Shown here: positions 9,482-16,229 of the stretch, one piece after another
How positions within the stretch are numbered: the stretch's first letter is position 1
How the letters are laid out: every line of letters starts with the position of its first letter
Virus record (IMG/VR): IMGVR_UViG_3300045988_154953
Length of the DNA stretch: 64,000 bases
Direction: 5' to 3' (one strand)
Source: a virus
Notes under the pieces: generated by a model
What the model was told of the DNA's origin: nothing
What the model saw: only the letters and a program-made list of their open reading frames with translations
Database searches by the model: none
Program-made: the position numbers and the translations under genes

Positions 9482-9539
9482 TTTTAGAAAACGAATTTGT
9501 TTGGTTATGGATTAAAATTTGATTCATAACCAAACGATA

Positions 9540-9663
9540 AAGTAATCAGTATATTAAGTATTATTACTTGATATCTGCAGGTGATTTTGCACCTGAAAAG
9601 TGAGGTTAATAACACTCACTAAAATCTGTGTAATTAGATTCGAAATGTACATGTGAATTTGAG
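9540..9663 (+). ncRNA. putative tracrRNA-like scaffold, upstream module (U)
   Basis: Stacked hairpins are present: aagtaat/attactt at 9540-9569, caggtg/cacctg at 9578-9595 and gtgag/ctcac at 9600-9619. A 14-nt block cactcactaaaatc (9613-9626) is identical to one in the downstream scaffold. It is followed by an 11-nt anti-repeat tctgtgtaatt (9625-9635). The 5' boundary is uncertain. Confidence 0.5.
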
Positions 9664-9765
9664 GTTTTAGAGATATATTAAATTACATAGATACAAAACT
9701 CATGGACTCTATAAGATAAGTATGGTGTGGTTTTAGAGATATATTAAATTACACAGGTACATAAA
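9664..9765 (+). CRISPR. mini CRISPR array U: 2 repeats, 1 spacer
   Basis: The repeat is GTTTTAGAGATATATTAAATTACATAGATACAAAAC (9664-9699). The second copy (9730-9765) is identical for 24 nt and then degenerate. The spacer is 30 nt (9700-9729) and the period is 66 nt. Confidence 0.6.
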
Positions 9766-9825: not shown

Positions 9826-11556
9826 ATGAATACAATAAAAAATACATATATACGAACATTAAAATTTAATTTAAATTTAACACCAAAATTCGAAACAGAA
9901 GAAGATAATAAAAAATATATAAATGATGTGTATTCATATCTAAGAGATGCTATATGGGCACAAAATAGAGCTATGAATATTGTTCTTGATCGAACTAAAG
10001 AAGCTTATACACTTGGACGAGGGATGAACAGGGTTAAAGAAATATATTATTCATATTCCCATCAAAAACCAATTAGTAATGACAAAAAAGAAAGCTTCTT
10101 AGAATCATTGTTGCAGTATGCACCTATAGACGATCAATTTGTAAAAAATGAAGTTAAAAAATTACGTAAATTCTATGAATCTAAAAAGAAACCACCAAAA
10201 GAAGAAACTGTTTCTAAAAATTGTGAAGCTTTAAAAAATAAGTACATAAAATATGTTGGTAAATCAAAAGATGATGTCAAACGAGAATTAGATTTACTTG
10301 AAAATTATTGTGCATATCCAGAAGATATTTATGAAAAATTTGCTAACGGATTAAGCACACCTGCATATATAAAACAGAAAGTAGAATCTTATTGGAAACA
10401 GGATGGAATAAAAACAAAAGTTATTTACTCGATGGATGAAAATCTCAGACGAATAAAAGATGCTCCATTGTTCATACCACCAAATGTTTTTTACAATAAA
10501 AAAGATGAATTAATCGGTTTGGTATATGATTATACTGACTATATATCTTTTTTAGAAGATTTAGAAAATAAACGAAATGTAAATATATATTTAAGTATTC
10601 CATATAAAAAAGGTGAAGATAAATTAAAATTCAAATTAGTTCTAGGGAATCCACATAAGTCTCGTGATTCTAGATTATCCATAAAAAGAATTTTTGAAGA
10701 AGAATATAGAATTAAAGGCAGCAGTATTGGATTTACGAAGAATAAAGAAACTGGCAAAAATACAAATTTAACTTTATATCTTACTGTTGAAGTCCCACAA
10801 AATAAAGATAATACTCTTGATGAGAATGTAGTTGTTGGAGTAGATGTCGGCATCGCTATTCCATGTGTATGTGCTTTAAATAACGATAAATATACAAGAG
10901 AAAATATTGGAAGTTATGATACTTTATTTGCTAAAAGAACCCAGTTTAAAATGCAGAGAAGTAGATTGAATAGTCAATTAAAATTATCAAAGGGTGGACA
11001 TGGAAGAAAAAGAAAGTTAAAGAAATTAGAATTACTTTCAGGAAAAGAGAAAAATTACGTTGATACAGAATGTAGAAAGTATGCAAGTGATGTAATTAAA
11101 TTTTGTTTAAAACATCATGCTAAATATATTAATTTAGAGCACCTAAAAGGATATCGAGAGAATCCTAAAGTATTAGCTGGATGGAGTTTTTATAAAATCC
11201 AAACATATATTGAACAAGCAGCTGAAAAACATGGAATTATTGTAAGGAAAATTAATCCATGTTATACATCACAGATTTGTAGCGTATGTGGAAATTGGCA
11301 TCCAGAGAATAGACCAAAGGGTAAATTAGGGCAAGCATATTTTAATTGTCATAATATTGATTGTAAAACTCATAATACAGATTTGTATAAATATGGTATT
11401 AATGCAGACTTTAATGCTGCTAGGAATATAGCAATGTCAACATTATTTATTACCGATTCTGATGAGATCACAAAGAAACATTGGAAAGAAGCCAGAGAAT
11501 ATTATGGTATAGATGAATCGGATGATAAAGAAGAAAAATTAAATAAAGTAGCCTAA
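9826..11556 (+). CDS. cas12f: Cas12f (Cas14)-like / TnpB-derived RuvC nuclease, 576 aa
   Basis: The split RuvC triad is intact: VVVGVD340VG, INLE438HL and NAD528FNAARNIA. A zinc ribbon is present (C485xxC488 ... C508x4C513). GHGRKRKLKKL and the motif order are collinear with Cas14a1/Un1Cas12f1 as I recall it. Confidence 0.8.
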   Translation: MNTIKNTYIRTLKFNLNLTPKFETEEDNKKYINDVYSYLRDAIWAQNRAMNIVLDRTKEAYTLGRGMNRVKEIYYSYSHQKPISNDKKESFLESLLQYAPIDDQFVKNEVKKLRKFYESKKKPPKEETVSKNCEALKNKYIKYVGKSKDDVKRELDLLENYCAYPEDIYEKFANGLSTPAYIKQKVESYWKQDGIKTKVIYSMDENLRRIKDAPLFIPPNVFYNKKDELIGLVYDYTDYISFLEDLENKRNVNIYLSIPYKKGEDKLKFKLVLGNPHKSRDSRLSIKRIFEEEYRIKGSSIGFTKNKETGKNTNLTLYLTVEVPQNKDNTLDENVVVGVDVGIAIPCVCALNNDKYTRENIGSYDTLFAKRTQFKMQRSRLNSQLKLSKGGHGRKRKLKKLELLSGKEKNYVDTECRKYASDVIKFCLKHHAKYINLEHLKGYRENPKVLAGWSFYKIQTYIEQAAEKHGIIVRKINPCYTSQICSVCGNWHPENRPKGKLGQAYFNCHNIDCKTHNTDLYKYGINADFNAARNIAMSTLFITDSDEITKKHWKEAREYYGIDESDDKEEKLNKVA

Positions 11557-11713
11557 GTGCTACTAAACCAGTCGAAAGACTGCGGTGTGTTTTGGTGTGT
11601 TTATATAGCCTCAAATATAAACACCGCTATTGTGGATACAATAGTACGCCGAAAGGTGAGGATTCGTCACTCACTAAAATCCATGTTAAAACTTGTATCT
11701 ATGGTAATTTGGG
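11557..11713 (+). ncRNA. putative tracrRNA-like scaffold, downstream module (D)
   Basis: It starts right after the cas stop codon. Hairpins: cagtc-GAAA-gactg (11569-11582), a roughly 10-bp stem at 11597-11624, ctattgt/acaatag (11627-11644), and gtgag..UUCG..ctcac (11656-11674). Then come the conserved cactcactaaaatc (11668-11681) and the anti-repeat tccatgttaaa (11680-11690). Confidence 0.55.
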
Positions 11714-11881
11714 GATTAAGAAGTATATCATTTAACATGGGTACAAAACTCTATAGAGATACACTGTATATTTAGTTATGATTAAGAAGTATATCATTTA
11801 ACATGGGTACAAAACTCAGCACTGCATTTATTTTTAGGCAGGCACGATTAAGAAGTATATCATTTAACACGAATATAAAAA
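11714..11881 (+). CRISPR. mini CRISPR array D: 3 repeats (last one degenerate), 2 spacers
   Basis: The repeat GATTAAGAAGTATATCATTTAACATGGGTACAAAAC occurs at 11714 and 11780, with a degenerate copy at 11846. The period is 66 nt. The 30-nt spacers are at 11750-11779 and 11816-11845. Confidence 0.7.
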
Positions 11882-12930: not shown

Positions 12931-13806
12931 ATGAAAGTAGTCAAGAGAGATTGTACGCTGGTAGATTTTGATAAAAATAAAATTTACACAGCGATAATGA
13001 AAGCGATGAAGGATGGATCAGGAATTGTGAAGCCGAAGGTAGCAGAAGACATCTCAAATGAGATATATGAAATGCACAAAAATGACGATGAAATCGACAT
13101 TTCAACCATCGAATCAGAGGTCTTCGATAAATTGATTACAAAAAAACAAAGACTTACTGCCAGAGCTTATGAAGGATATAGAAGTAAACGAGAGCTGCAA
13201 CGAGAATATAACACTATAGATGATGAAATAATCGGCCTTGTCGAAGATAAAAATGAATATTGGAAAGATGAAAATGCAAACAAAAATCCAATATTAAATC
13301 CAACGAAAAGAGATTATATTGCCGGTTCAGTAAGTACAGATGCAACAAAAAGATATTTATTATCACCAGAAATAGTACAAGCTCATATGGATGGTATTAT
13401 TCACTTTCATGATGCAGATTATTTTATTCAACATATGCATAATTGTGATCTAGTTAATCTTGAAGATATGTTACAAAATAACACTGTAATTAGTGGAGTA
13501 TTAATTGAAAAACCACATTCTTTTTCTACTGCTTGTAATATAGCTACACAAGCCATTTCACAAATAGCAAGTAATCAATATGGGGGTCAAAGTGTTTCTT
13601 TGGCACATCTCGCTCCTTTCGTAGATATTTCAAGACAAAAAATAAGAGAAGAATTAGTAGAAGAATTTTCTTTATTGGGTTTCTCTAAGGGTGGAATTAT
13701 AGACGAAGATTTTAATGCAGTTGTAGAAAAACGTTTAAAGAAAGAAATTGAAAAAGGTGTTCAGACTATTCAATATCAATTAGTTACACTTATGACAACA
13801 AACGGT
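12931..13806 (+). CDS. nrdD: anaerobic ribonucleoside-triphosphate reductase, exon 1 (ATP-cone and N-terminal part)
   Basis: MKVVKRDCTLVDFDKNKIYTAIMKA is an ATP-cone. The ORF ends ..LMTTNG, directly before an intron-like sequence. Confidence 0.85.
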
Positions 13807-14861
13807 TAATTTTGGCTGTTGTAAAATCTTGTGAACCATGCCAATGGGTGTCTAATAAATTAGGCTAACGGTCAACTAACCTCAAGGGTAAGGTGGTAAG
13901 AGAACCTAAGTCCTGTAATAAGGATATGGTAATACCGTGTTAAGCGTTTTGTTTATAAAAATAAAAAAAGAAAGGGGGGGAATGAAAAATGTATGGATAT
14001 ATATATTTAACTACAAATCTAATCAACGATCGAAAATATATAGGAAAACATAAAAGTGAATTTTATGACGATAAATATTATGGGAGTGGAAAGATTCTTT
14101 TGCAGGCTATATCAAAATATGGTATTGAAAATTTTACGAATGAAATATTATACGAAGCGGATTACGCAGAAGAATTAAATAAAAAAGAAAAAGAATATAT
14201 TTCATTATATAGAGGAAAATATGGAAAACAAATGTATAATATAGCGTCTGGAGGAGACGGGGGAGATACATACTCATCTAAATCTGAAGAAGAAAAAGAA
14301 GATTTTGTTAAGAAAATGGAGAAAATAAATAGAGACAGATGTTCTTCGAAAGAATTTAAGATACAAGCTTCTGAACGTTTAACTAAAAAATATTCCAACA
14401 TTGAAGAAAGAAAATTACAATCCGAAAGAATTAAAAAAGCTTGGGATAATGAGCAATTAAAGGAAGATCAGAGCGAGCGATTAAAAAATTATTATAAAAC
14501 ACATAAAAAAGAAAATTCATATAATAACATTCCATGTGGGATTAAATTTAATGGGGTAAAATATGAATTTGAAAGTGTTAAGCAATTAAAAAAATTCATA
14601 AAAGAAGAGTTTAATTTTGTCCCAGGAAATTCAAAGATAAAACAGATGATGATTGATGGGACTAATGGTATTCCATATGTTTCTTTCTTTAAAAAATACA
14701 GTAATTTGAATGGCGCGTTACTTTATTATAAACAAAACGAAAATGTAGAGACTATGGGTGATGAATGTAGCCCAGTAGAGCATGAGATAGGCACATGCTC
14801 CAAGTGCAAGACTGAAATAGAAGAGATAGTCCGCTCTGCATAGAAATATGCAGATGGGGTG
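13807..14861 (+). mobile_element. group I intron in nrdD carrying a GIY-YIG homing endonuclease gene
   Basis: The last exon nt is T (ggT|taatttt) and the last intron nt is G (ggggtG|caagcc). Joining gives ..TTNG|QAPFITIF.. in frame. Structured GC-richer segments flank the ORF. Confidence 0.8.
13989..14843 (+). CDS. GIY-YIG homing endonuclease (intron-encoded)
   Basis: MYGYIYLTTNLINDRKYIGKH..YYGSG is the GIY-YIG motif. The gene lies inside the nrdD interruption. Confidence 0.85.
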   Translation: MYGYIYLTTNLINDRKYIGKHKSEFYDDKYYGSGKILLQAISKYGIENFTNEILYEADYAEELNKKEKEYISLYRGKYGKQMYNIASGGDGGDTYSSKSEEEKEDFVKKMEKINRDRCSSKEFKIQASERLTKKYSNIEERKLQSERIKKAWDNEQLKEDQSERLKNYYKTHKKENSYNNIPCGIKFNGVKYEFESVKQLKKFIKEEFNFVPGNSKIKQMMIDGTNGIPYVSFFKKYSNLNGALLYYKQNENVETMGDECSPVEHEIGTCSKCKTEIEEIVRSA

Positions 14862-16229
14862 CAAGCCCCTTTTATTACAATTTTCATGTATCTTAATGAA
14901 GCCAAAAACGAACAAGAAAAACACGATTTAGCTTTATTAATCGAAGAAATGCTTCATCAAAGAATCAAAGGAGTAAAAAATAAAGAAGGAGTTTATGTAG
15001 CACCTGCATTTCCTAAACTAATTTATGTTTTGGAAGAAGATAATATTCATGAAGATTCAAAATATTGGTATTTGACAAAATTAGCTGCGGAGTGTTCTTC
15101 TAAACGTTTAGTTCCAGATTATATTTCAGAAAAAATTATGCTTGAAACAAAAGGTGATGTATACACCTGTATGGGATGTAGATCATTTTTAACAGTAGAT
15201 AGATTTTCTGATAAAGTTTCTAACATTGCCAATGCGAAAAATTACGAACCTGACAAACACAAATATTACGGACGCTTCAATCAAGGTGTAGTTACACTTT
15301 CACTACCAGATATTGCTTTATCTTCAGAAGGTGATTTCGATACATTTTGGAAAATTTTTGAAGAAAGAACTGAATTGTGTCATAAAGCACTTAGAATCAG
15401 ACATGAAAGATTGCGCGGTACATTATCTGATGTTGCTCCTATATTGTGGCAAGATGGTGCTCTTGCTCGATTAAAAGAACATGAAAAAATCGATAAACTT
15501 CTTTATGATGGTTATTCAACTATATCTTTGGGATATGCCGGTTTATATGAATGTGTAAAATATATGACTGGACATTCTCATTCTGATGAAGGTATTGGCG
15601 AAGAGTTTGGATTAAAAGTTATGCAAGCTCTTAATGATAAGTGTGCTCAGTGGAAAAATGCTGAAAATATAGATTATAGTTTGTATGGTACGCCTCTCGA
15701 AAGTACAACGTATAAATTTGCAAAATGCTTAAAGGCTCGTTTTGGTAAAGATGTATTTATTAGATTGGATGGATTTGATAGAAATTATATAACTAATTCA
15801 TATCATATTCCAGTGTTTGAGCCAATTACAGCGTTTGAAAAACTTAGAATAGAAGCAAAATTCCAATTATTAAGTCCTGGTGGAGCCATTTCTTATGTAG
15901 AAGTACCAAGCATGTCTCATAATATTAATGCTTTGATCGAAGTTATCAAATTCATTTACTATCACATTCAGTATGCAGAAATTAATACTAAAAGTTGCTA
16001 CTGTGAAAAATGTGGCTATGATGGAGATATTCCTCTTGTACTAGATGAAAATGGTAAATATAGATGGGAGTGTCCACAATGTGGCAATATAGATAATACT
16101 ACCATGGATATTGCTTTTAGAGTCTGTGGTTACATTGGTACTGCAAAAAATGGTGGTAATCAAGGACGATATGGTGATGTACATGATCGTGTATATCACT
16201 TAGATGATATAGAATATAATGAGAAATAG
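14862..16229 (+). CDS. nrdD: anaerobic ribonucleoside-triphosphate reductase, exon 2 (C-terminal part with glycyl-radical site)
   Basis: It begins QAPFITIF. It contains the C-terminal Zn site CEKCG..CPQCG and the glycyl radical motif RVCGYIG. Confidence 0.85.
   Translation, partial: QAPFITIFMYLNEAKNEQEKHDLALLIEEMLHQRIKGVKNKEGVYVAPAFPKLIYVLEEDNIHEDSKYWYLTKLAAECSSKRLVPDYISEKIMLETKGDVYTCMGCRSFLTVDRFSDKVSNIANAKNYEPDKHKYYGRFNQGVVTLSLPDIALSSEGDFDTFWKIFEERTELCHKALRIRHERLRGTLSDVAPILWQDGALARLKEHEKIDKLLYDGYSTISLGYAGLYECVKYMTGHSHSDEGIGEEFGLKVMQALNDKCAQWKNAENIDYSLYGTPLESTTYKFAKCLKARFGKDVFIRLDGFDRNYITNSYHIPVFEPITAFEKLRIEAKFQLLSPGGAISYVEVPSMSHNINALIEVIKFIYYHIQYAEINTKSCYCEKCGYDGDIPLVLDENGKYRWECPQCGNIDNTTMDIAFRVCGYIGTAKNGGNQGRYGDVHDRVYHLDDIEYNEK

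What the first reader, a model, noticed from the sequence alone, without database searches (positions are those of the whole stretch)
11691..11749. Second anti-repeat abutting the first repeat suggests a cis-folded, omega-RNA-like natural single guide and cross-talk between modules
The last 23 nt of scaffold D (acTTGTATCTATGgTAATTTggg, 11691-11713) match the antisense of the U-type repeat at 17 positions with a single 1-nt insertion. The antisense of the U repeat reads GTTTTGTATCTATGTAATTT. The same segment also pairs with positions 23-33 of the D repeat: 11 bp, two of them G-U. Because it lies only 3 nt before repeat 1, the primary transcript could fold back on repeat 1. That would give scaffold, duplex and guide in one RNA, as in TnpB omega RNAs, while later repeats would need pairing in trans. 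Scaffold U has a more degenerate equivalent (TGTACATGTGAATTTGAG). This arrangement could represent an intermediate between an omega RNA and a tracrRNA plus CRISPR array.
Basis: partly seen in the sequence, partly recalled or inferred. Interest (0 to 1): 0.65.

Follow-up and report, generated by a model that had tools for sequence, protein, structure and literature searches.

The report
Spare anti-repeat in phage Cas12f tracrRNA
The 23 bases are the tail of a guide-scaffold RNA (tracrRNA) gene of a phage-borne miniature CRISPR nuclease (Cas12f), and they carry a real but probably spare second copy of the sequence that pairs with the CRISPR repeat, while the working pairing is made by a different segment just upstream.

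Summary
11691-11713 matches the antisense of the upstream (U) repeat at 17 of 18 positions. It can pair with repeat positions 23-33 of its own (D) array: 11 bp, 2 G-U. Both are beyond chance.

The context is a phage Cas12f gene (9826-11556; closest solved relative CnCas12f1). It is flanked by two self-contained "tracrRNA + mini-array" cassettes.

Covariation across about 70-80 related cassettes defines the working guide:
- an upstream anti-repeat (AR1, 11679-11690) pairs with repeat positions 18-29;
- a pseudoknot joins tracr GUUUUG (11589-11594) to repeat positions 31-35.

Its target overlaps both working contacts, it shows no compensatory changes, and the validated Al3Cas12f single guide omits that region.

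It is most likely a degenerate duplicate or extension of the anti-repeat, a recurrent feature of this family. A role as a competing fold on repeat 1 is not excluded.

A natural single guide in cis is plausible, but through AR1, not AR2. Cross-talk between cassettes is not conserved in near-identical relatives. The "omega-RNA to tracrRNA" intermediate idea has been proposed for other lineages and is not specific to this locus.

The parts
9482..9663 (+). Scaffold U: tracrRNA gene of the upstream cassette
   Evidence: Same plan as scaffold D and as the validated Al3Cas12f single guide. The fold z-score with repeat 1 and spacer 1 is -7.0.
9577..9595 (+). Pseudoknot hairpin of scaffold U; loop AUUUUG at 9584-9589 pairs with repeat positions 31-35 (CAAAA)
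   Evidence: The loop 5-mer is the reverse complement of repeat 31-35 in 8 different sequence classes across cassettes.
9600..9619 (+). Conserved hairpin GUGAGG...CACUCAC of scaffold U
   Evidence: Present in every cassette recovered. It corresponds to UUUGAGGUG...CACUCAAA in the Al3Cas12f guide.
9624..9635 (+). AR1-U, the working anti-repeat (ATCTGTGTAATT)
   Evidence: -13.4 and -14.7 kcal/mol with the U repeats, against -7.3 with the D repeat. Covaries with the repeat across cassettes.
9636..9663 (+). Linker U, with the degenerate second anti-repeat (9646-9663) and the junction motif TTTGAG
   Evidence: RNAduplex with U R1 gives -10.0 kcal/mol, p = 0.05. It pairs better with the terminal U R2, -15.5.
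9664..9765 (+). U mini-array: R1 9664-9699, spacer 9700-9729, degenerate terminal R2 9730-9765
   Evidence: the repeat finder families D3 and D5; sequence.
9826..11556 (+). cas12f gene (576 aa)
   Evidence: NCBIfam guided_TnpB 2e-36; Pfam Cas12f1-like TNB domain. A profile of this protein and its homologues hits CnCas12f1 (8HR5) at 5e-107 over the full length. The residues I read as the RuvC triad (D340/E438/D528) and the zinc-finger cysteines (C485/C488/C508/C513) are invariant.
11557..11713 (+). Scaffold D: tracrRNA gene of the downstream cassette, starting right after the stop codon
   Evidence: fold z-score -3.2 with repeat 1 and spacer 1.
11589..11594 (+). GUUUUG, pseudoknot partner of repeat positions 31-36
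   Evidence: Covariation of this motif with the repeat 3' end across cassettes.
11655..11674 (+). Conserved hairpin GGUGAGG...CACUCAC of scaffold D
11679..11690 (+). AR1-D, the working anti-repeat (ATCCATGTTAAA); pairs with repeat positions 29-18
   Evidence: -14.4 kcal/mol with the D repeat against -4.1 with the U repeat. Three compensatory pairs in alignment A3; 1 of 500 shuffles as good.
11691..11713 (+). The finding: linker D with the second anti-repeat (core TTGTATCTATG 11693-11703, TAATTT 11705-11710, junction GGG 11711-11713)
11714..11881 (+). D mini-array: R1 11714-11749, S1 11750-11779, R2 11780-11815, S2 11816-11845, degenerate terminal R3 11846-11881

Best explanation
What it is. 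The 23 nt are the 3' tail of a Cas12f tracrRNA gene. Equivalently, they are the leader of its mini-array.

The locus. It is a phage-borne type V-F-like system. One cas12f gene is flanked by two cassettes. Each cassette is a tracrRNA scaffold that runs directly into 1-2 working repeat-spacer units and ends in a degenerate repeat.

The working guide (shown by covariation):
- scaffold hairpin ...CACUCACUAAAAU;
- then AR1, which pairs with repeat positions 18-29;
- plus a pseudoknot between a tracr GUUUUG/AUUUUG motif and repeat positions 31-35, next to the spacer.

AR2 (inferred). AR2 sits in the variable linker between AR1 and repeat 1. I read it as a degenerate second copy or extension of the anti-repeat. 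In this family the linker often holds a decayed tandem copy of AR1, or a continuation of the anti-repeat into the 5' half of the repeat. The D copy looks like an AR1 of the U-type specificity (ATCTATG-TAATTT).

What AR2 can and cannot do. It can pair with repeat 1 in cis about as strongly as AR1. That pairing occupies nucleotides needed for both AR1 and the pseudoknot. So it cannot build the active guide. At most it is a transient competing fold.

Natural single guide (inferred). For the first repeat, a scaffold-AR1-loop-repeat-spacer transcript is plausible, with the linker plus the 5' half of the repeat as the loop.
For: Identity of the system:
- The protein profile hits CnCas12f1 (8HR5) at 5e-107 over the full length, then Al3, Rh, Os, As and Un1 Cas12f (names confirmed).
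- The validated Al3Cas12f guide reads ...GCGCGUUGGAGCGCC..UUUGAGGUG..CACUCAAAAAAU-UCACUUGA-GAAA-UCAAGUGA-AUA-UCCAAC. It has the same order of elements and stops right after the AR1 equivalent.

Working contacts:
- AR1 with the repeat: positions 22-29 are paired in all 69 cassettes, positions 20-21 in 94-96%. Positions 25-29 show 3-4 pair types each. Pairing is partly by construction, because cassettes were selected on AR1 complementarity. The diversity of pair types is not.
- In the same 9 cassettes that carry AR2, AR1 has 3 compensatory pairs and 1 of 500 shuffles reaches its score.
- Pseudoknot: 8 matched sequence classes (TTTTG:CAAAA 46 cassettes, TTTCG:CGAAA 6 of 6, TTCAG:CTGAA 6 of 6, TTTGA:TCAAA 3 of 3, and others). 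Non-cognate CGAAA or CTGAA partners were found in only 1-2 of 75.

AR2 itself:
- 92.8% of cells paired, but 0 compensatory pairs. Variation is one-sided and absorbed by G-U. 500 of 500 shuffles do as well.
- Its target overlaps the AR1 target by 7 nt and the repeat's 3'-terminal segment ACAAAAC (positions 30-36), which holds the pseudoknot nucleotides, by 4 nt.
- In the scaffold+R1+S1 ensemble, AR1:R1 has probability 0.95 and AR2:R1 0.02.

Recurrence of such elements:
- Linker-to-repeat-1 complementarity reaches p < 0.05 in 35% and p < 0.01 in 16% of 75 cassettes.
- It is heterogeneous. Tandem AR1 copies occur in the L024-L037 group, L052/57/60/62, L068, L084, L001 upstream and L184. GTATCT-type linkers occur in about six groups. 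Extension into the repeat's 5' half occurs in L016, L040 and L082.

Layout in bacteria: three Bacteroidales loci (L109, L114, L116) and a Pseudobutyrivibrio locus (L105) also have the tracr abutting repeat 1. Published practice places the Cas12f tracrRNA between the nuclease gene and the array.
Against: - AR2:R1 (-13.8 kcal/mol) is nearly as stable as AR1:R1 (-14.4).
- When the folded transcript includes repeat 2, the predicted ensemble flips. AR2 then holds R1 (0.97) and AR1 holds R2 (0.94). A nested two-repeat fold is therefore thermodynamically credible.
- The core GTATCT is kept in about six cassette groups with different AR1 and repeat types.
- The enrichment of linker-repeat complementarity could reflect selection rather than origin.
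- No transcript data exist, so neither co-transcription nor dispensability is shown for this locus.
Confidence: 0.55

Rival explanations
1. AR2 is a selected cis-acting leader-repeat element. In the tracr-array precursor it captures repeat 1. This frees AR1 for repeat 2, giving a nested fold. Alternatively it marks the tracr/array junction for processing, or tunes how often spacer 1 is used.
For: - AR2:R1 is as stable as AR1:R1.
- With two repeats in the transcript, the ensemble gives AR2:R1 0.97 and AR1:R2 0.94.
- 12 of 57 cassettes show the same nested prediction.
- Linker-R1 complementarity is enriched about 7-fold at p < 0.05 and 16-fold at p < 0.01.
- Leader-repeat hairpins with a demonstrated role exist in type VI, and a type II-A precedent is cited there.
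Against: - No compensatory change in 9 cassettes.
- Second anti-repeat copies also occur in solo-repeat cassettes, where no second repeat needs freeing (L001 upstream; L093/L094/L096).
- Many cassettes have linkers of 5-13 nt with no such element.
- In this repeat-guide system, masking repeat 1 would silence a genuine crRNA. The known cases silence an extraneous one.
- Folding predictions on AU-rich RNAs of about 300 nt are noisy.
Confidence: 0.25
2. One reading: AR2 paired with repeat 1 is itself the repeat:anti-repeat duplex of a productive, omega-RNA-like natural single guide.
For: - It lies 3 nt from repeat 1, with an 11-bp pairing.
- The scaffold and array are contiguous on one strand.
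Against: - AR2 covers repeat positions 30-33, which include pseudoknot nucleotides, and 7 nt of the AR1 target.
- It lies 14 nt further from the CACUCACUAAAAU element than AR1 does, so the geometry differs from the validated Al3Cas12f guide.
- No covariation.
Confidence: 0.05
3. Cross-talk: the tail of the D tracrRNA pairs in trans with crRNAs of the U array, linking the two cassettes.
For: -18.1 kcal/mol with U repeat 1. No shuffle and no genomic 23-mer is as good.
Against: - The match needs CATAGAT in this window's U R1.
- The window's own U R2 and all three U repeats of L090 (nuclease 99% identical) read CACAG, which gives an A-C mismatch (-12.9 with U R2).
- L006 (98%) lacks the TAATTT half.
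- The two AR1s are orthogonal: -14.4 against -4.1, and -13.4 against -7.3.
- The U cassette has its own scaffold.
Confidence: 0.05
4. Chance similarity in AT-rich DNA.
For: For its own repeat alone the match is modest: p = 0.014, and 0.5% of genomic 23-mers do as well.
Against: - The match to the U repeat is unmatched in 25,292 23-mers.
- Homologous GTATCT linkers recur in several cassette groups.
Confidence: 0.03

Closest known systems
Type V-F CRISPR-Cas12f with tracrRNA (CnCas12f1, PDB 8HR5; Al3Cas12f/uCas of Alistipes)
   Same: - Nuclease homology.
- The tracrRNA lies between the nuclease gene and the array, on the same strand.
- The scaffold elements come in the same order as in the validated Al3Cas12f single guide: pseudoknot loop, UUUGAGG/CACUCAAA stem, anti-repeat, 3-nt connector, 6-nt pseudoknot tail.
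   Different: - Carried by large gut phages (contigs of about 50-210 kb).
- At most 43% identity to anything in 185,579 cellular species genomes.
- Two to four cassettes around one gene, each with its own matched tracrRNA.
- Mini-arrays of 1-4 repeats.
- No adaptation genes among the 12 neighbouring ORFs I checked.
- A linker with a spare anti-repeat copy.
TnpB omega RNA (reRNA) and TranC 'RNA splitting' intermediates
   Same: - A TnpB-family nuclease.
- Scaffold D starts at the stop codon, as omega RNAs sit at the 3' end of tnpB.
- The nucleotides next to the guide form a pseudoknot with the scaffold.
- Scaffold and first guide may be on one transcript.
   Different: - Repeats and spacers are present.
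- I saw no transposase gene or transposon ends near the locus; no dedicated search was run.
- The protein groups with Cas12f and carries its N-terminal expansion.
- The idea that tracrRNA plus crRNA arose by splitting an omega RNA is already published for other lineages (cited). The locus therefore adds no new principle.
Leader-first-repeat hairpins (type II-A, Liao et al. 2022; type VI-B and others, PMC13187072)
   Same: A segment just upstream of the array is complementary to repeat 1 and could fold on it in cis. It recurs in relatives more often than chance.
   Different: - Those systems have the guide-repeat order, so repeat 1 makes an extraneous crRNA that the hairpin blocks.
- The repeat-guide subtype VI-A showed none.
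- Here the order is repeat-guide and repeat 1 heads a genuine crRNA.
- The extraneous repeat is the last one, and it is disabled by mutation (11846-11881, 9730-9765).
- There is no covariation support.
Long native anti-repeat of Un1Cas12f1 (Cas14a1) tracrRNA, trimmed in engineered guides (my own knowledge of Takeda 2021 and Kim 2021; not checked here)
   Same: A native tracrRNA 3' region that pairs with more of the repeat than the active complex needs. Cassettes L016, L040 and L082 show such an extension into the repeat's 5' half.
   Different: In this window the extension no longer matches the repeat's 5' half (z = +0.9). Instead it matches the 3' half, which is already used by AR1 and the pseudoknot.
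Phage-encoded Cas12p ('Cas12 hacker')
   Same: A phage-borne miniature Cas12 with a tracrRNA and a conserved AAAC:UUUG pseudoknot.
   Different: A different protein family: PDB 9JFS matches only at 8e-5 over about 50 residues.

Membership tests
Type V-F CRISPR-Cas12f | Miniature (400-700 aa) TnpB-derived nuclease with a C-terminal RuvC domain and zinc finger, homologous to known Cas12f | tested here: met
   - 576 aa.
- Profile against the PDB: CnCas12f1 5e-107 over the full length; Al3, Rh, Os, As and Un1 Cas12f from 1e-86 to 1e-41.
- Pfam Cas12f1-like TNB domain at 1.9e-13.
- D340/E438/D528 and C485/C488/C508/C513 are invariant.
Type V-F CRISPR-Cas12f | Passes a curated Cas12f subfamily model | tested here: not met
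   NCBIfam Cas12f2 scores 84.8 bits against a cutoff of 450. Only the general guided_TnpB model passes (126 against 100). No Cas12f1-specific NCBIfam model appeared among the hits at E <= 1.
Type V-F CRISPR-Cas12f | Adjacent CRISPR array of direct repeats and unique spacers | tested here: met
   36-nt repeats with a 66-nt period, at 9664-9765 and 11714-11881. Spacers differ between near-identical relatives.
Type V-F CRISPR-Cas12f | tracrRNA with an anti-repeat, and a pseudoknot with the repeat 3' end | tested here: met
   Covariation of AR1 with repeat 20-29. Covariation of the loop 5-mer with repeat 31-35. Expression was not tested.
Type V-F CRISPR-Cas12f | Asymmetric homodimer on one guide; PAM-dependent double-stranded DNA cleavage | not testable with these tools
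   No protospacer was found, so no PAM could be inferred.
TnpB / omega RNA (OMEGA) element | TnpB-family protein | tested here: met
   NF040570 at 2.2e-36, above its cutoff.
TnpB / omega RNA (OMEGA) element | Sits in an IS200/IS605-type transposon with ends (and often TnpA); a single guide lies just beyond the right end | tested here: not met
   - The gene is flanked by repeat-spacer arrays.
- Its neighbours are phage genes (SPFH, guanylate kinase, nucleoside deoxyribosyltransferase, NrdD).
- The genomic context differs between relatives.
- Transposon ends were judged by inspection only.
TnpB / omega RNA (OMEGA) element | Scaffold and guide in one RNA molecule | not testable with these tools
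   Contiguity and same-strand layout make it plausible. The cis fold through AR1 is predicted. No RNA data are available.
TranC (transposon-CRISPR intermediates) | A TnpB-like nuclease that uses both a CRISPR crRNA and a transposon-derived reRNA; placed in defined TranC clades | not tested
   No TranC sequences were on hand. The protein's best matches are Cas12f structures. The family is known to me only through the citing preprint.
Leader-repeat hairpin regulators | A leader segment complementary to the first repeat, more often than chance across relatives | tested here: met
   35% of 75 cassettes at p < 0.05, 16% at p < 0.01. Window D: p = 0.007 with 300 shuffles, 0.014 with 5000.
Leader-repeat hairpin regulators | The hairpin is conserved with covariation and is the preferred fold of repeat 1 | tested here: inconclusive
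   No compensatory pairs. The preferred fold depends on transcript length: 0.02 without repeat 2, 0.97 with it.
Leader-repeat hairpin regulators | Blocks an extraneous crRNA that arises from the first repeat (guide-repeat order) | tested here: not met
   The order here is repeat-guide, by homology to Cas12f guides. The extraneous repeat is the last one, and it is mutated.

The most novel reading that the evidence does not exclude
These phage cassettes are cis-acting guide units. Each tracrRNA is made fused to its own mini-array and mostly serves that array. The spare anti-repeat next to repeat 1 acts as a built-in switch: it holds repeat 1 while AR1 engages repeat 2. This gives a compact nested precursor and sets which spacer is loaded. 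It would be a leader-repeat control element in a tracrRNA-dependent, repeat-guide system, and a living analogue of the omega-RNA-to-CRISPR transition.
Probability: 0.15. Interest if true: 0.6.

Novelty: new variant of a known kind. Interest (0 to 1): 0.4.

Why it matters
If the spare anti-repeat is only a relic, the finding itself is ordinary. The locus still has three uses.

- It gives a covariation-backed guide design for a new phage clade of compact Cas12f nucleases: scaffold up to AR1, repeat positions 18-36, then the spacer.
- It shows that one nuclease can be served by several mutually orthogonal tracrRNA/repeat pairs. That is a natural template for multiplexing without cross-talk.
- The tracr-fused, sometimes single-repeat cassettes make a question testable: do natural Cas12f guides start life as single molecules, as the RNA-splitting model of type V origins implies?

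If the spare copy proves functional, it would extend leader-repeat control of crRNA production to a type V system where it is not expected.

Tried and rejected
- Rfam. No family matches either scaffold.
- Junction motif paired to the upstream scaffold. In window D, ATTTGGGG can pair with CCUCAAAU in a hairpin loop. Across 69 cassettes none reached p < 0.05, so I rejected it.
- Junction tail AGATTT paired with AAAUCU at the start of AR1, which would make a closed tracr 3' hairpin. Only the invariant AAA:TTT pairs hold, and position 5 is paired in 29%. Rejected as a general helix.
- General extension of the anti-repeat into the 5' half of repeat 1. It is significant in only 3 of 77 cassettes (L016, L040-573, L082-3213) and not in this window.
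- Promoter or terminator at the junction. No sigma-70-like promoter or intrinsic terminator lies in either linker. A Bacteroides-type -7 motif (TAnnTTTG; consensus from my own knowledge) does not fit by eye. NrdD relatives point to Firmicute hosts, though this is weak.
- Spacer targets. No match in GenBank phages, none in IMG/VR for 22-nt seeds, and none in the fetched loci.
- The locus itself has no DNA match in GenBank phages.
- More GTATCT-type cassettes, to gain power for covariation. A pattern scan of IMG/VR gave only 10 stretches, mostly already held. Four more contig look-ups added cassettes of other linker types, including one further tandem AR1 copy in L184.
- Cas12p ('hacker') as the family. 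Rejected, because only the RuvC/zinc-finger tail matches.
Full report
**1. What is at the coordinates**

11691-11713 reads ACTTGTATCTATGGTAATTTGGG. It ends 0 nt before repeat 1 of a three-repeat array:
- R1 11714-11749
- R2 11780-11815
- degenerate R3 11846-11881 (period 66)

A second array lies 2 kb upstream: R1 9664-9699 and a degenerate R2 9730-9765.

- Against the antisense of the upstream (U) repeat, the segment aligns at 17 of 18 columns with one inserted G.
- TTGTATCTATG (11693-11703) pairs with positions 33-23 of the downstream (D) repeat: 11 bp with two G-U.

By RNAduplex the U match is far beyond chance. It scores -18.1 kcal/mol, with 0 of 5000 shuffles and 0 of 25,292 genomic 23-mers as good. 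The match to its own repeat is modest: -13.8 kcal/mol, p = 0.014, and 0.5% of 23-mers as good.

**2. What the locus is**

Between the arrays lies a 576-aa ORF (9826-11556).
- It passes NCBIfam's RNA-guided TnpB model and carries the Pfam Cas12f1-like TNB domain.
- A profile of it and its homologues hits the CnCas12f1-guide-DNA structure 8HR5 at 5e-107 over the full length. It then hits Al3, Rh, Os, As and Un1 Cas12f (names confirmed in PMC13186708).
- D340, E438 and D528, which I read as the RuvC triad, and the zinc-finger cysteines are invariant.
- It is not Cas12p ('hacker').

Homologues number 439 and sit mostly on metagenomic contigs of 50-230 kb. The best cellular-genome relatives share at most 43% identity: Anaerotignum, Erysipelotrichaceae, Pseudobutyrivibrio, then Bacteroidales.

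The neighbours are phage-type genes: SPFH, guanylate kinase, nucleoside deoxyribosyltransferase, NrdD and NrdG-like. NrdD is closest to Enterocloster phages and human faecal phage contigs. No adaptation gene was seen among the 12 flanking ORFs I checked.

**3. The cassette**

Each array is preceded on the same strand by a structured non-coding stretch: 9482-9663 and 11557-11713. With repeat 1 and spacer 1 the fold z-scores are -7.0 and -3.2.

The two stretches share a hairpin GUGAGG...CACUCAC, then UAAAAU, then a 12-nt anti-repeat (AR1):
- AUCUGUGUAAUU at 9624-9635
- AUCCAUGUUAAA at 11679-11690

I recovered 81 non-redundant cassettes of this form from about 100 related loci. Each has the order hairpin, AAAAU, AR1, linker of 5-108 nt (median 22) ending in TTTGAG, then repeat 1. 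Loci carry one to four cassettes around a single nuclease gene.

The validated Al3Cas12f single guide (PMC13186708, supplement) has the same order of elements:
- a hairpin whose loop GUUGGA matches the repeat end UCCAAC;
- the stem UUUGAGGUG/CACUCAAA;
- an anti-repeat;
- a GAAA loop placed directly after the anti-repeat;
- then the repeat part, a 3-nt connector and a 6-nt tail.

**4. Which contacts are real**

AR1 with the repeat.
- Across 69 cassettes, repeat positions 22-29 are paired in all, and positions 20-21 in 94-96%. Positions 25-29 show three to four pair types each.
- Pairing is partly by construction, because cassettes were selected on AR1 complementarity. The variety of pair types is not by construction.

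The pseudoknot.
- The repeat's positions 31-35 are matched by a 5-mer in the scaffold.
- In U-type scaffolds the 5-mer sits in a hairpin loop 16 nt upstream of the GUGAGG hairpin. In D-type scaffolds it lies further upstream.
- Eight different matched sequence classes occur. Non-cognate CGAAA or CTGAA partners are found in only 1-2 of 75 cassettes.

The mature guide therefore uses repeat 18-29 (AR1) and 31-35 (pseudoknot). In this window the pseudoknot partners are 9584-9589 and 11589-11594. The two AR1s are orthogonal: -14.4 against -4.1, and -13.4 against -7.3 kcal/mol.

**5. Where that leaves the second anti-repeat (AR2)**

AR2 lies in the variable linker. Its target, repeat 23-33, overlaps the AR1 target by 7 nt. 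It overlaps the repeat's 3'-terminal segment (positions 30-36), which holds the pseudoknot nucleotides, by 4 nt. The AR2 pairing and the active fold are therefore mutually exclusive on one repeat.

I aligned nine cassettes that share the GTATCT-type linker (A3).
- AR2:R1 is paired in 92.8% of cells but has no compensatory change. All variation is one-sided and absorbed by G-U. Every shuffle does as well.
- AR1:R1 in the same nine sequences has three compensatory pairs, and 1 of 500 shuffles reaches it.

Near-identical relatives do not help AR2 either. L090 and L091 (nuclease 99% and 97% identical) keep the tail unchanged while their repeats vary at positions 26-28. L006 (98%) changes AR1 together with the repeat (C-G to U-A). 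It keeps only CTTGTATCTAT of the tail and loses the TAATTT half.

**6. Is it part of a pattern?**

Yes, but a heterogeneous one. Linker-to-repeat-1 complementarity reaches p < 0.05 in 35% and p < 0.01 in 16% of 75 cassettes. Four linker types recur:
- a decayed tandem copy of AR1 just before GAG|R1 (the L024-L037 group, L052/57/60/62, L068, L084, L001 upstream, L184);
- a GTATCT-type element pairing with repeat 23-33 (window D, L006, L009, L001, L013, L021/L033);
- a continuation of the anti-repeat into the repeat's 5' half, which makes a long hairpin with AAUUUGAGG in the loop (L016, L040, L082);
- nothing at all, with linkers of 5-13 nt.

Both tails in this window parse as AR1-like copies with a 1-nt indel. 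The D tail reads ATCTATG(G)TAATTT, which is a U-type specificity. The U tail reads TGTG-AATTT against AR1-U TGTGTAATT.

The simplest reading is a by-product of duplication or extension of the anti-repeat. I cannot exclude that selection keeps it.

**7. Cis folding**

In scaffold+R1+S1, the minimum-energy fold and the ensemble put AR1 on R1 (0.95), with AR2 in the loop (0.02). Adding R2+S2 flips the prediction: AR2:R1 0.97 and AR1:R2 0.94, a nested fold. The same nested pattern appears in 12 of 57 cassettes, but these predictions are noisy.

Co-transcription of scaffold and array is plausible for four reasons:
- they are contiguous on the same strand;
- some linkers are too short for a promoter;
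- no promoter-like or terminator-like site lies at the junction;
- solo-repeat cassettes exist (L001 upstream; L093, L094, L096).

A natural single guide for the first repeat is thus credible, but through AR1. The linker plus the repeat's 5' half would play the part of the engineered GAAA loop.

**8. Cross-talk**

The 17-nt match to the U repeat depends on CATAGAT in this window's U R1. The window's own U R2 and all three U repeats of L090 read CACAG, which creates an A-C mismatch (-12.9 against -18.1). Cross-talk is therefore not conserved.

**9. Comparison with what is known**

- The cas12f-tracr-array layout is standard for Cas12f. It is seen in three Bacteroidales relatives and one Pseudobutyrivibrio relative.
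- The idea that tracrRNA plus crRNA arose by splitting an omega RNA has been published for TranC systems (cited).
- Leader-repeat hairpins are known in type II-A and type VI systems with the guide-repeat order, where they block an extraneous first crRNA. The repeat-guide subtype VI-A shows none.
- Here the order is repeat-guide. The extraneous repeat is the last one, and it is disabled by mutations in exactly the AR1 and pseudoknot targets.

Three features look new as a variant: the phage setting, several orthogonal tracr+mini-array cassettes per nuclease, and the spare anti-repeat in the leader. In six full-text searches on related topics I found no description of these, but absence from that library is weak evidence.

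**10. Verdict**

A cis single guide is plausible, but through AR1.
- Not supported: AR2 as the productive duplex, cross-talk between cassettes, and a special intermediate status.
- Most likely, AR2 is a spare, degenerate anti-repeat copy (0.55). A competing-fold or regulatory role remains open (0.25).

Noticed in passing
window 12931-16229: The anaerobic ribonucleotide reductase gene nrdD is split exactly at Pfam profile position 154/155. The N-terminal part is 12931-13809 and the C-terminal part 14859-16229. About 1 kb lies between them and holds a 284-aa ORF (13989-14843) with no Pfam hit. Rfam finds no intron there. This may be a mobile insertion or a split gene.
   Followed up: partly
window 9730-9765 and 11846-11881: The last repeat of each array is degenerate precisely in the AR1 target and the pseudoknot tail (..CACAGGTACATAAA and ..CACGAATATAAAAA). 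This would silence the extraneous crRNA that a repeat-guide array makes from its terminal repeat.
   Followed up: partly
window 9657-9664 and 11707-11714; all related cassettes: A junction motif (A)ATTTGAG|G directly precedes repeat 1 in nearly all cassettes, whatever the linker length or repeat type (TTTGAGG in 40 of 81, TTTGGGG in 5). It is not explained by pairing to the scaffold, by a covarying helix, or by a promoter or terminator. It resembles the 5' arm UUUGAGG of the Al3Cas12f scaffold stem and the first bases of many repeats.
   Followed up: partly
window 9638-9663 against 9730-9765: The tail of scaffold U pairs better with the degenerate terminal repeat U R2 (-15.5 kcal/mol) than with U R1 (-10.0). 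The tail's ATGTAC matches the mutated GTACAT of R2. The same tail and terminal repeat are present in L090.
   Followed up: no
L073, L082 (4 cassettes each); L001, L040, L052, L054, L057, L060, L062 (3 each): A single cas12f gene can be surrounded by up to four tracrRNA+mini-array cassettes, each with its own matched anti-repeat and repeat. The cassette looks like the unit of gain and loss.
   Followed up: partly
L001:2874-2975; L093, L094, L096: Some cassettes have a single repeat. In L001 the repeat is followed by 35 nt and then the cas12f start codon, so the 'spacer' is the gene's own 5' leader. In L093 and L094 the array has collapsed to one terminal-type repeat.
   Followed up: no
window 9577-9595 against 11583-11652: There are two scaffold types. 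In the U type the pseudoknot motif sits in the loop of a small hairpin 16 nt before the GUGAGG hairpin. In the D type the same stem (CGGUGU/ACGCCG) encloses the motif plus about 50 nt of extra hairpins.
   Followed up: partly
window 11557-11775: A 72-aa GTG-start ORF overlaps scaffold D and repeat 1. It is almost certainly not a gene, since it lies on structured RNA and a CRISPR repeat.
   Followed up: no
L184, L185, L187 (downstream of the cassette): In a sub-clade of 541-542-aa relatives, the cassette is followed by a PemK-type toxin gene. In L184 a phage integrase gene lies upstream. This suggests a different mobile context from the large phages.
   Followed up: no
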